Made by a program: the position numbers and the translations under genes. Of a stretch of 37,603 bases of DNA, positions 6,074 to 6,153 are shown in pieces. The notes beneath the pieces were generated by a model. The model was not told the origin of the DNA. It did not search any database and saw nothing but the letters and a program-made list of their open reading frames with translations. Position 1 is the stretch's first letter. Each line of letters starts with the position of its first letter. Location: sequence record PV223881. One strand, given 5' to 3'. This stretch comes from Escherichia phage T7.

Positions 6074-6080
6074 TCACACT

Positions 6081-6110
6081 GGCTCACCTTCGGGTGGGCC
6101 TTTCTGCGTT
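6081..6110 (+). terminator. Early terminator TE for host RNA polymerase
   Basis: GC stem ggctcacc-ttcg-ggtgggcc followed by tttctgcgttt. Confidence 0.85.
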
Positions 6111-6123
6111 TATAAGGAGACAC

Positions 6124-6146
6124 TTTAACGACTCACTAAAGGAGGT
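6124..6146 (+). promoter_or_regulatory. T7 promoter phi1.5
   Basis: tttaacgactcactaaaggaggt. Confidence 0.75.
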
Positions 6147-6153
6147 ACACACC

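What the first reader, a model, noticed from the sequence alone, without database searches (positions are those of the whole stretch)
6074..6153. Apparently exact excision of the gene 1.4 ORF between TE and phi1.5
The distance from the ligase stop (6073) to the gene 1.5 ATG (6154) is 80 bp, against 236 bp in wild-type T7 by my recalled coordinates. The 156-bp shortfall equals the size of the gene 1.4 ORF (51 codons plus stop), and the RBS-like taaggagacacttt now abuts the phi1.5 promoter. An ATG-to-stop excision with no scar is typical of designed deletions.
Basis: inference. Interest (0 to 1): 0.45.

Follow-up and report, generated by a model that had tools for sequence, protein, structure and literature searches.

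The report
Engineered gene 1.4 deletion in T7
The missing 156 bases are a deliberate, already published laboratory deletion of the small non-essential gene 1.4 in a genome-reduced T7 "chassis" phage (T7-B-G), placed one base off the exact gene boundaries so that it also rewrites the first four bases of the neighbouring phi1.5 promoter.

Summary
The ligase stop (6073) and the gene 1.5 ATG (6154) are 80 bp apart, against 236 bp in wild-type T7 (NC_001604). Exactly 156 bp are missing, and the flanks carry no other change.

The window is a complete engineered T7 genome. Without a 1587-bp cassette it is byte-identical to PV223880 (T7-B). It therefore matches T7-B-G (PV223881) of Zhang et al., mBio 2025 (SMART method). 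That paper deleted gp1.4 on purpose by Red-ccdB recombineering and lists the deletion as NC_001604 7,609-7,764.

It keeps the A of the ATG (7608) and removes one base past the stop (7764). The same supplement gives the ORF as 7,608-7,763. The coordinates probably came from the 39,938-bp T7 numbering of Yuan et al. 2022, whose own mutants carry the exact-ORF deletion and differ by one junction base.

The gene 1.4 stop codon is -17..-15 of phi1.5, so the promoter's upstream TAAT is now TTTA. Positions -15 and -14 are invariant in all 17 native T7 promoters. The TE hairpin, the -13..+6 promoter core and gene 1.5 are intact. This is already known and of low interest.

The parts
4994..6073 (+). Gene 1.3 (ATP-dependent DNA ligase), the left flank. 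It is intact.
   Evidence: ORF; annotated gp1.3 at the same coordinates in PV223880 and PV223882; collinear with WT 6475..7554.
6081..6111 (+). Early terminator TE. The hairpin GGCTCACC-TTCG-GGTGGGCC is at 6081..6100 and the T-rich tail at 6101..6111. It is unchanged from wild type.
   Evidence: Hairpin in both the MFE and the centroid fold. NC_001604 annotates TE at 7588, which is window 6107. Identical to WT in alignment A1. The simple terminator scan missed it because the T-run is interrupted.
6113..6127 (+). Orphaned gene 1.4 ribosome-binding region, TAAGGAGACACTTT, plus the retained A (6127) of the former ATG. No start codon follows it.
   Evidence: Sequence; alignment to WT.
6127..6128 (.). 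Deletion junction. WT 7608 is joined to WT 7765, removing 156 bp (7609..7764: the gene 1.4 ORF minus its first base, plus one base).
   Evidence: Table S2 of PMC12153263 lists gp1.4 as 7,609-7,764, 156 bp. The amp-ccdB-gp1.4 primer arms end at ...ACACTTTA and start at ACGACTC....
6124..6146 (+). Modified phi1.5 T7 RNA polymerase promoter, -17..+6, with +1 at 6141. It reads TTTAACGACTCACTAAAGGAGGT against wild-type TAATACGACTCACTAAAGGAGGT. Positions -16, -15 and -14 are substituted and -13..+6 is intact.
   Evidence: the exact wild-type 23-mer is absent from the window, the core starts at 6128, and -15 A and -14 T are invariant in all 17 native T7 promoters. WT promoter start site at 7778.
6154..6243 (+). 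Gene 1.5 (29 aa), the right flank. Its own Shine-Dalgarno sequence (AAGGAGG, inside the promoter +1 region) and its ATG are intact.

Best explanation
The window is the complete genome of the synthetic phage T7-B-G (Zhang et al., mBio 2025, SMART method). The 80-bp interval is what remains after a deliberate, marker-free deletion of the non-essential gene 1.4, which encodes a 51-aa hydrophobic protein of unknown function.

Shown by the paper: T7 fragment F4 was cloned in a BAC. An amp-ccdB cassette was recombineered into the locus using 40-nt arms that end at WT 7608 and start at WT 7765. An 80-nt single-stranded oligonucleotide then replaced the cassette under ccdB counter-selection. The fragments were assembled and the phage was rebooted.

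Shown by the sequence: the result is a scarless join of WT 7608 to WT 7765.

Inferred: the one-base displacement from the ORF (7608-7763) is a numbering carry-over. The non-essential-region list was taken from Yuan et al. 2022, whose 39,938-bp T7 numbers gene 1.4 as 7609-7764. Those numbers were then applied to the 39,937-bp NC_001604.

Consequences read directly from the sequence:
- gp1.4 is gone.
- Its Shine-Dalgarno sequence is orphaned.
- The TE terminator and gene 1.5 are untouched.
- The phi1.5 promoter keeps -13..+6 but has TTTA instead of TAAT at -17..-14.

Inferred: the promoter still works, perhaps more weakly. The segment stays all-A/T, and the polymerase's AT-rich recognition loop reads it through the minor groove. 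Genes 1.5 and 1.6 are also served by read-through from phi1.1A/B and phi1.3 and by phi1.6.
For: The window has 160-bp terminal repeats and is collinear with NC_001604 apart from seven deletions and one insertion. Without 16288..17874 it is byte-identical to PV223880 'recombinant T7-B', and 36016+1587=37603. Bases 5800..6600 are 100% identical to PV223880, PV223882 and PV223883 at the same coordinates. Only these three records carry the exact junction. The paper describes T7-B-G as T7-B plus a 1.6-kb PT7-lysGH15 cassette at gp7.7, and describes the seamless Red-ccdB deletion of gp1.4. Table S1 gives T7-B-G = PV223881. Table S2 gives the gp1.4 deletion as 7,609-7,764, while Table S3 gives the gp1.4 CDS as 7,608-7,763. 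The primer arms match the observed junction. MZ375233, the 39,938-bp T7 of the CiPGr study, annotates gene 1.4 at 7609..7764. The CiPGr mutant MZ375285 has the exact-ORF junction ACACTTTT|ACGACTC. The gene 5.3 deletion shows the same +1 shift: 16484..16821 here against 16483..16820 in MZ375285. The insert encodes His6-LysGH15.
Against: PV223881 itself is not in the local collection, so identity to T7-B-G rests on T7-B plus the described cassette. The second-round oligo HA-gp1.4, as printed in Table S7, is the left arm repeated twice. This looks like a misprint, so the final junction is documented only through the first-round primers, Table S2 and the deposited sequences. The numbering carry-over is an inference, because the authors do not comment on the shift. 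No measurement of phi1.5 activity in this strain was found.
Confidence: 0.95

Rival explanations
1. An exact ATG-to-stop deletion (7608..7763), as in the CiPGr mutants, followed by a T-to-A point mutation at the -14 position of phi1.5. The mutation could have arisen from an oligonucleotide synthesis error or during propagation.
For: The window and the CiPGr junction differ by a single base. The strain list was derived from the CiPGr study.
Against: Table S2 states 7,609-7,764. The first-round primer arm ends ...ACACTTTA, which includes the A. The gene 5.3 deletion is shifted +1 in the same way, so the shift is systematic. SMART rebuilt the phage from cloned wild-type fragments rather than from CiPGr mutants.
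Confidence: 0.03
2. A spontaneous natural deletion in a T7 stock, of the kind that arises by recombination between short direct repeats.
For: T7 is known to lose early-region DNA in this way (background knowledge). The 0.3-0.7 junction in this same genome lies in a 13-bp direct repeat, AGGAAGTCGAGGA.
Against: There is no microhomology at the gene 1.4 junction. Its size equals the ORF length exactly. It co-occurs with six other gene-targeted deletions and a His-tagged transgene. It is identical to deposited 'recombinant' records. No natural isolate in 50,697 phage records carries it.
Confidence: 0.01
3. A sequencing or assembly artefact that collapsed 156 bp.
For: None specific.
Against: No repeat flanks the site that could cause a collapse. 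The same junction is present in three independently deposited genomes. The paper reports confirmation by PCR and whole-genome sequencing.
Confidence: 0.01

Closest known systems
T7-B / T7-B-G / T7-B-J / T7-B-GJ chassis phages (Zhang et al., mBio 2025; PV223880-PV223883)
   Same: The junction is identical, and so is every other deletion. The window equals T7-B plus the PT7-His6-lysGH15 cassette.
   Different: Nothing detectable. The PV223881 record itself could not be fetched for a direct comparison.
CiPGr genome-reduced T7 mutants (Yuan et al., NAR 2022; e.g. MZ375285 T7_270L)
   Same: A 156-bp designed deletion of gene 1.4 between TE and phi1.5, and the same general set of non-essential loci.
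   Different: The CiPGr deletion is the exact ORF (NC_001604 7608..7763), with junction ACACTTTT|ACGACTC, so the promoter's -14 T is kept. The window's deletion is 7609..7764, with junction ACACTTTA|ACGACTC. The construction methods also differ: Cas9 plus a 2x50-bp repair template there, Red-ccdB recombineering on BAC fragments here.
Wild-type T7 TE / gene 1.4 / phi1.5 region (NC_001604 7555..7790)
   Same: TE, the gene 1.4 Shine-Dalgarno sequence, phi1.5 from -13 to +6 and gene 1.5 are base-for-base identical.
   Different: The gene 1.4 coding sequence is absent, and phi1.5 -17..-14 is TTTA instead of TAAT.

Membership tests
Published engineered phage T7-B-G (SMART method) | Backbone identical to T7-B (PV223880) | tested here: met
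   The window minus 16288..17874 equals the 36,016-bp PV223880 exactly.
Published engineered phage T7-B-G (SMART method) | A ~1.6-kb PT7-His6-lysGH15 cassette at the gp7.7 locus | tested here: met
   A 1587-bp insert replaces WT 20109..20208. It has a T7 promoter and an [13 protein letters not shown] of 507 aa. The ORF matches the LysGH15 domain structures 4OLK, 4OLS and 2MK5 at E-values of 1e-85 to 1e-160.
Published engineered phage T7-B-G (SMART method) | gp1.4 deletion at the stated coordinates, 7,609-7,764 of NC_001604 | tested here: met
   against Table S2 and the primer arms.
Published engineered phage T7-B-G (SMART method) | Direct identity to accession PV223881 | not testable with these tools
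   The record is absent from the local collection. Table S1 assigns that accession to T7-B-G.
Exact ORF (ATG-to-stop) excision | The deleted block is the annotated CDS 7608..7763 | tested here: not met
   The deleted block is 7609..7764. The placement is unique, since no base can slide across the junction. The exact-ORF version, seen in MZ375285, differs by one base.
Spontaneous direct-repeat-mediated T7 deletion | A short direct repeat at both deletion end-points, with one copy retained | tested here: not met
   There is 0 bp of homology at the junction.
T7 RNA polymerase promoter (23-bp, -17..+6) | Specificity and melting region -12..-1 and initiation region +1..+6 matching phi1.5 | tested here: met
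   ACGACTCACTAAAGGAGGT is retained at 6128..6146.
T7 RNA polymerase promoter (23-bp, -17..+6) | Upstream element TAATA at -17..-13, with -15 A and -14 T invariant in the native set | tested here: not met
   The window has TTTAA. Positions -16, -15 and -14 are substituted, and -15 and -14 are invariant in 17 of 17 native promoters. The segment remains 100% A/T. Activity was not measured.

The most novel reading that the evidence does not exclude
The unintended one-base shift gives phi1.5 a triple substitution in its upstream AT-rich element (-16 A>T, -15 A>T, -14 T>A). Two of these positions never vary among native T7 promoters. If this measurably weakens or abolishes phi1.5, the SMART and CiPGr strains form a ready-made pair differing only at -14. 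That pair could test what the AT-rich element contributes in vivo, and the defect could account for part of T7-B's slightly reduced burst size (197 against 224 in the paper).
Probability: 0.2. Interest if true: 0.15.

Novelty: already known. Interest (0 to 1): 0.07.

Why it matters
Its value is mainly as provenance. It identifies the window as a laboratory construct, so none of its gene-content oddities should be read as natural variation. There is also a small practical point for users of the T7-B chassis. The gp1.4 and gp5.3 deletions sit one base off the gene boundaries, and the gp1.4 deletion changes the upstream end of the phi1.5 promoter, which the source paper does not mention. This could matter when modelling class II transcription or when inserting cargo at this locus. 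The paper reports that this locus gave the lowest expression of the eight loci tested.

Tried and rejected
- PV223881 could not be fetched directly, because it is not in the local collection. The comparison used T7-B plus the insert instead.
- The simple terminator scan found nothing in 5900..6400. TE has an interrupted T-run, so I relied on the fold and on the NC_001604 annotation.
- I looked for quantitative data on substitutions at -17..-14 of the T7 promoter. Komura et al. 2018 (PMC5937735) discusses only -9..-7 and -5 in its text. The comprehensive single-substitution study it cites (Imburgio et al. 2000) is not in the searchable library, so no activity figure is given.
- I looked in the PhageMaP preprint (PMC11482910) for a conditional phenotype of gene 1.4 and found no mention.
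- My first SNP listing used a wrong offset for one block and produced meaningless output. The corrected run shows a single SNP in that block.
- BLAST 'overlaps' at several junctions turned out to be imperfect similarity rather than true microhomology. The junctions were re-derived by eye from the output.

Full report
**Observation**

The ligase ORF ends at window 6073, and the next annotated gene, 1.5, starts at 6154. The interval 6074..6153 is therefore 80 bp. In wild-type T7 (NC_001604, fetched as L001) the ligase ends at 7554 and gene 1.5 starts at 7791. Between them lie TE (7588), gene 1.4 (7608..7763) and phi1.5 (+1 at 7778).

BLAST of the whole window against NC_001604, followed by direct junction inspection, gives a single clean break. 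Window 6127 corresponds to WT 7608 and window 6128 to WT 7765. No base is shared across the junction, so the placement is unique. The surrounding block carries only one SNP, far away at WT 6311.

**What the window is**

The window begins and ends with the 160-bp T7 terminal repeat. It is collinear with T7 except for seven deletions and one insertion:

| Locus | WT bases deleted | Size |
|---|---|---|
| end of 0.3 to 0.7 | ~1259..2739 | 1481 bp |
| 1.4 | 7609..7764 | 156 bp |
| 1.7 | 8199..8734 | 536 bp |
| 3.8 | 11269..11559 | 291 bp |
| end of 4.2 to 4.7 | 13279..14297 | 1019 bp |
| 5.3 | 16484..16821 | 338 bp |
| 7.7 | 20109..20208 | 100 bp, replaced by a 1587-bp insert at window 16288..17874 |

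The insert carries a consensus T7 promoter, a pET-style leader and an [10 protein letters not shown]-tagged 507-aa ORF. That ORF matches the three solved domains of the staphylococcal endolysin LysGH15 (4OLK, 4OLS, 2MK5) and LysK.

A megablast of 5800..6600 finds three 100% matches at identical coordinates: PV223880 ('recombinant T7-B'), PV223882 (T7-B-GJ) and PV223883 (T7-B-J). Removing the insert from the window gives a sequence byte-identical to the 36,016-bp PV223880.

The source paper is Zhang et al., mBio 2025 (PMC12153263). It describes T7-B-G as T7-B with a 1.6-kb PT7-lysGH15 cassette at gp7.7. Its Table S1 assigns T7-B-G the accession PV223881. That record is absent from the local collection.

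**How the deletion was made**

[quoted passage not shown] The fragments were then assembled and the phage was rebooted.

Table S2 lists the gp1.4 region as 7,609-7,764 (156 bp) of NC_001604. The amp-ccdB-gp1.4 primers have arms ending ...GGAGACACTTTA and, in reverse complement, starting ACGACTCACTAAAGG.... This is exactly the junction in the window. The designed-deletion reading is therefore confirmed by documentation, not only by inference.

The excision is not ATG-to-stop. The same supplement's Table S3 gives the gp1.4 CDS as 7,608-7,763, one base to the left of the deletion. The window keeps the A of the ATG and loses T7764.

The non-essential-gene list was taken from Yuan et al. 2022 (CiPGr; PMC9825161). 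Their T7 is 39,938 bp, and its record MZ375233 annotates gene 1.4 at 7609..7764. Their mutants, such as MZ375285, carry the true ORF deletion, with junction ACACTTTT|ACGACTC. They match the window's junction region with exactly one mismatch.

The gene 5.3 deletion shows the same +1 displacement: 16484..16821 here against 16483..16820 in MZ375285. I infer that coordinates from the 39,938-bp numbering were applied to the 39,937-bp NC_001604. The authors do not say so.

**Consequences read from the sequence**

- Gene 1.4 encoded a 51-aa, strongly hydrophobic peptide, MFKKVGKFLAALAAILTLAYILAVYPQVALVVVGACYLAAVCACVWSIVNW. It is absent.
- Its Shine-Dalgarno region (6113..6119) is now followed by no start codon.
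- The TE hairpin (6081..6100) and its tail are unchanged.
- In wild type the gene 1.4 stop codon TAA is positions -17..-15 of phi1.5, so any full deletion of gene 1.4 clips the promoter. Here -17..-14 changes from TAAT to TTTA, while -13..+6 (6128..6146, +1 at 6141) is intact.
- Among the 17 native T7 promoters, -15 is always A and -14 is always T. Position -16 is A in 16 of 17.
- The exact wild-type phi1.5 23-mer no longer occurs in the window.

From general knowledge of the T7 RNA polymerase-promoter complex, -17..-13 is contacted in the minor groove by the AT-rich recognition loop, and the decisive base-specific contacts lie at -12..-5. The new segment is still all A/T, so I expect a functional, possibly weaker promoter. 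This is inference; no measurement was found.

The phage is clearly viable. The paper reports T7-B plaques comparable to wild type and a burst size of 197 against 224. It also reports that the gp1.4 locus gave the lowest reporter expression of the eight loci tested.

**Rivals**

- An exact-ORF deletion followed by a T-to-A mutation is contradicted by the primer arms, by Table S2 and by the parallel shift at gene 5.3.
- A spontaneous repeat-mediated deletion is contradicted by the absence of any microhomology, the engineered context and the absence of this junction from natural isolates.
- An assembly artefact is contradicted by three independent records and by the paper's PCR and sequencing confirmation.

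**Verdict**

This is a real feature, correctly spotted, and it is human-made and already published. The only added value is the one-base offset and its effect on phi1.5. Interest is low.

Noticed in passing
window 16288..17874: A 1587-bp transgene cassette replaces 100 bp of gene 7.7 (WT 20109..20208). It comprises a consensus T7 promoter, a pET-like leader and His6-LysGH15, a staphylococcal phage endolysin with CHAP, amidase-2 and SH3b domains. No terminator follows it, so transcripts run on into gene 8. The TAA of the cassette's TAATACGACTC promoter terminates the truncated 7.7 reading frame.
   Followed up: yes
window 925..1320 (junction at ~1244..1258): The deletion described as 'gp0.4-gp0.7' (1481 bp) actually starts inside gene 0.3 (ocr). 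The ORF is now 131 aa: the acidic C-terminal YEEDEE is replaced by a 21-residue tail read from the 3' part of gene 0.7. The junction lies in a 13-bp direct repeat, AGGAAGTCGAGGA. The T7-B record annotates no CDS here.
   Followed up: partly
window 13000|13001 (WT 16484..16821): The gene 5.3 deletion also starts one base after the A of its ATG. It is shifted +1 relative to the CiPGr mutant MZ375285 (16483..16820). This is the same numbering offset as at gene 1.4.
   Followed up: yes
window 10814|10815 (WT 13279..14297): The 'gp4.3-4.7' deletion also removes the last 48 bases of gene 4.2 and both promoters phi4.3 and phi4.7. From memory it also removes the RNase III site R4.7. It leaves 37 bp of gene 4.7 as the leader of gene 5.
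   Followed up: partly
window 9088..9100 (WT 11268|11560): The gene 3.8 deletion joins AGGAGGCA to ATTGCATG. The Shine-Dalgarno region of gene 4A therefore changes from GGAGGGAATTGCATG to GGAGGCAATTGCATG. The two ends share the imperfect repeat AGGAGG(C/G)A.
   Followed up: no
window 6553..6575 (WT 8198|8735): The gene 1.7 deletion keeps the first 11 codons and then runs straight into TAA, leaving an 11-aa stub ORF ([11 protein letters not shown]). It keeps the last 22 bases, which carry the gene 1.8 ribosome-binding site and start codon.
   Followed up: partly
Supplement of PMC12153263, Table S7: The oligo HA-gp1.4 as printed is the 40-nt left arm repeated twice rather than left arm plus right arm. 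This is almost certainly a misprint, since such an oligo could not produce the observed junction.
   Followed up: partly
window-wide; e.g. 4830, 7781, 11458, 21754, 21805, 25556-25557, 32920, 32924: Nineteen single-base differences from NC_001604 lie outside the engineered sites. They fall in genes 1.2, 2.8, 5, 7.3, 9, the 10B region, 11, 12, 14, 15, 16, 17 and 19. They are presumably lab-stock variation and none is near the finding.
   Followed up: partly
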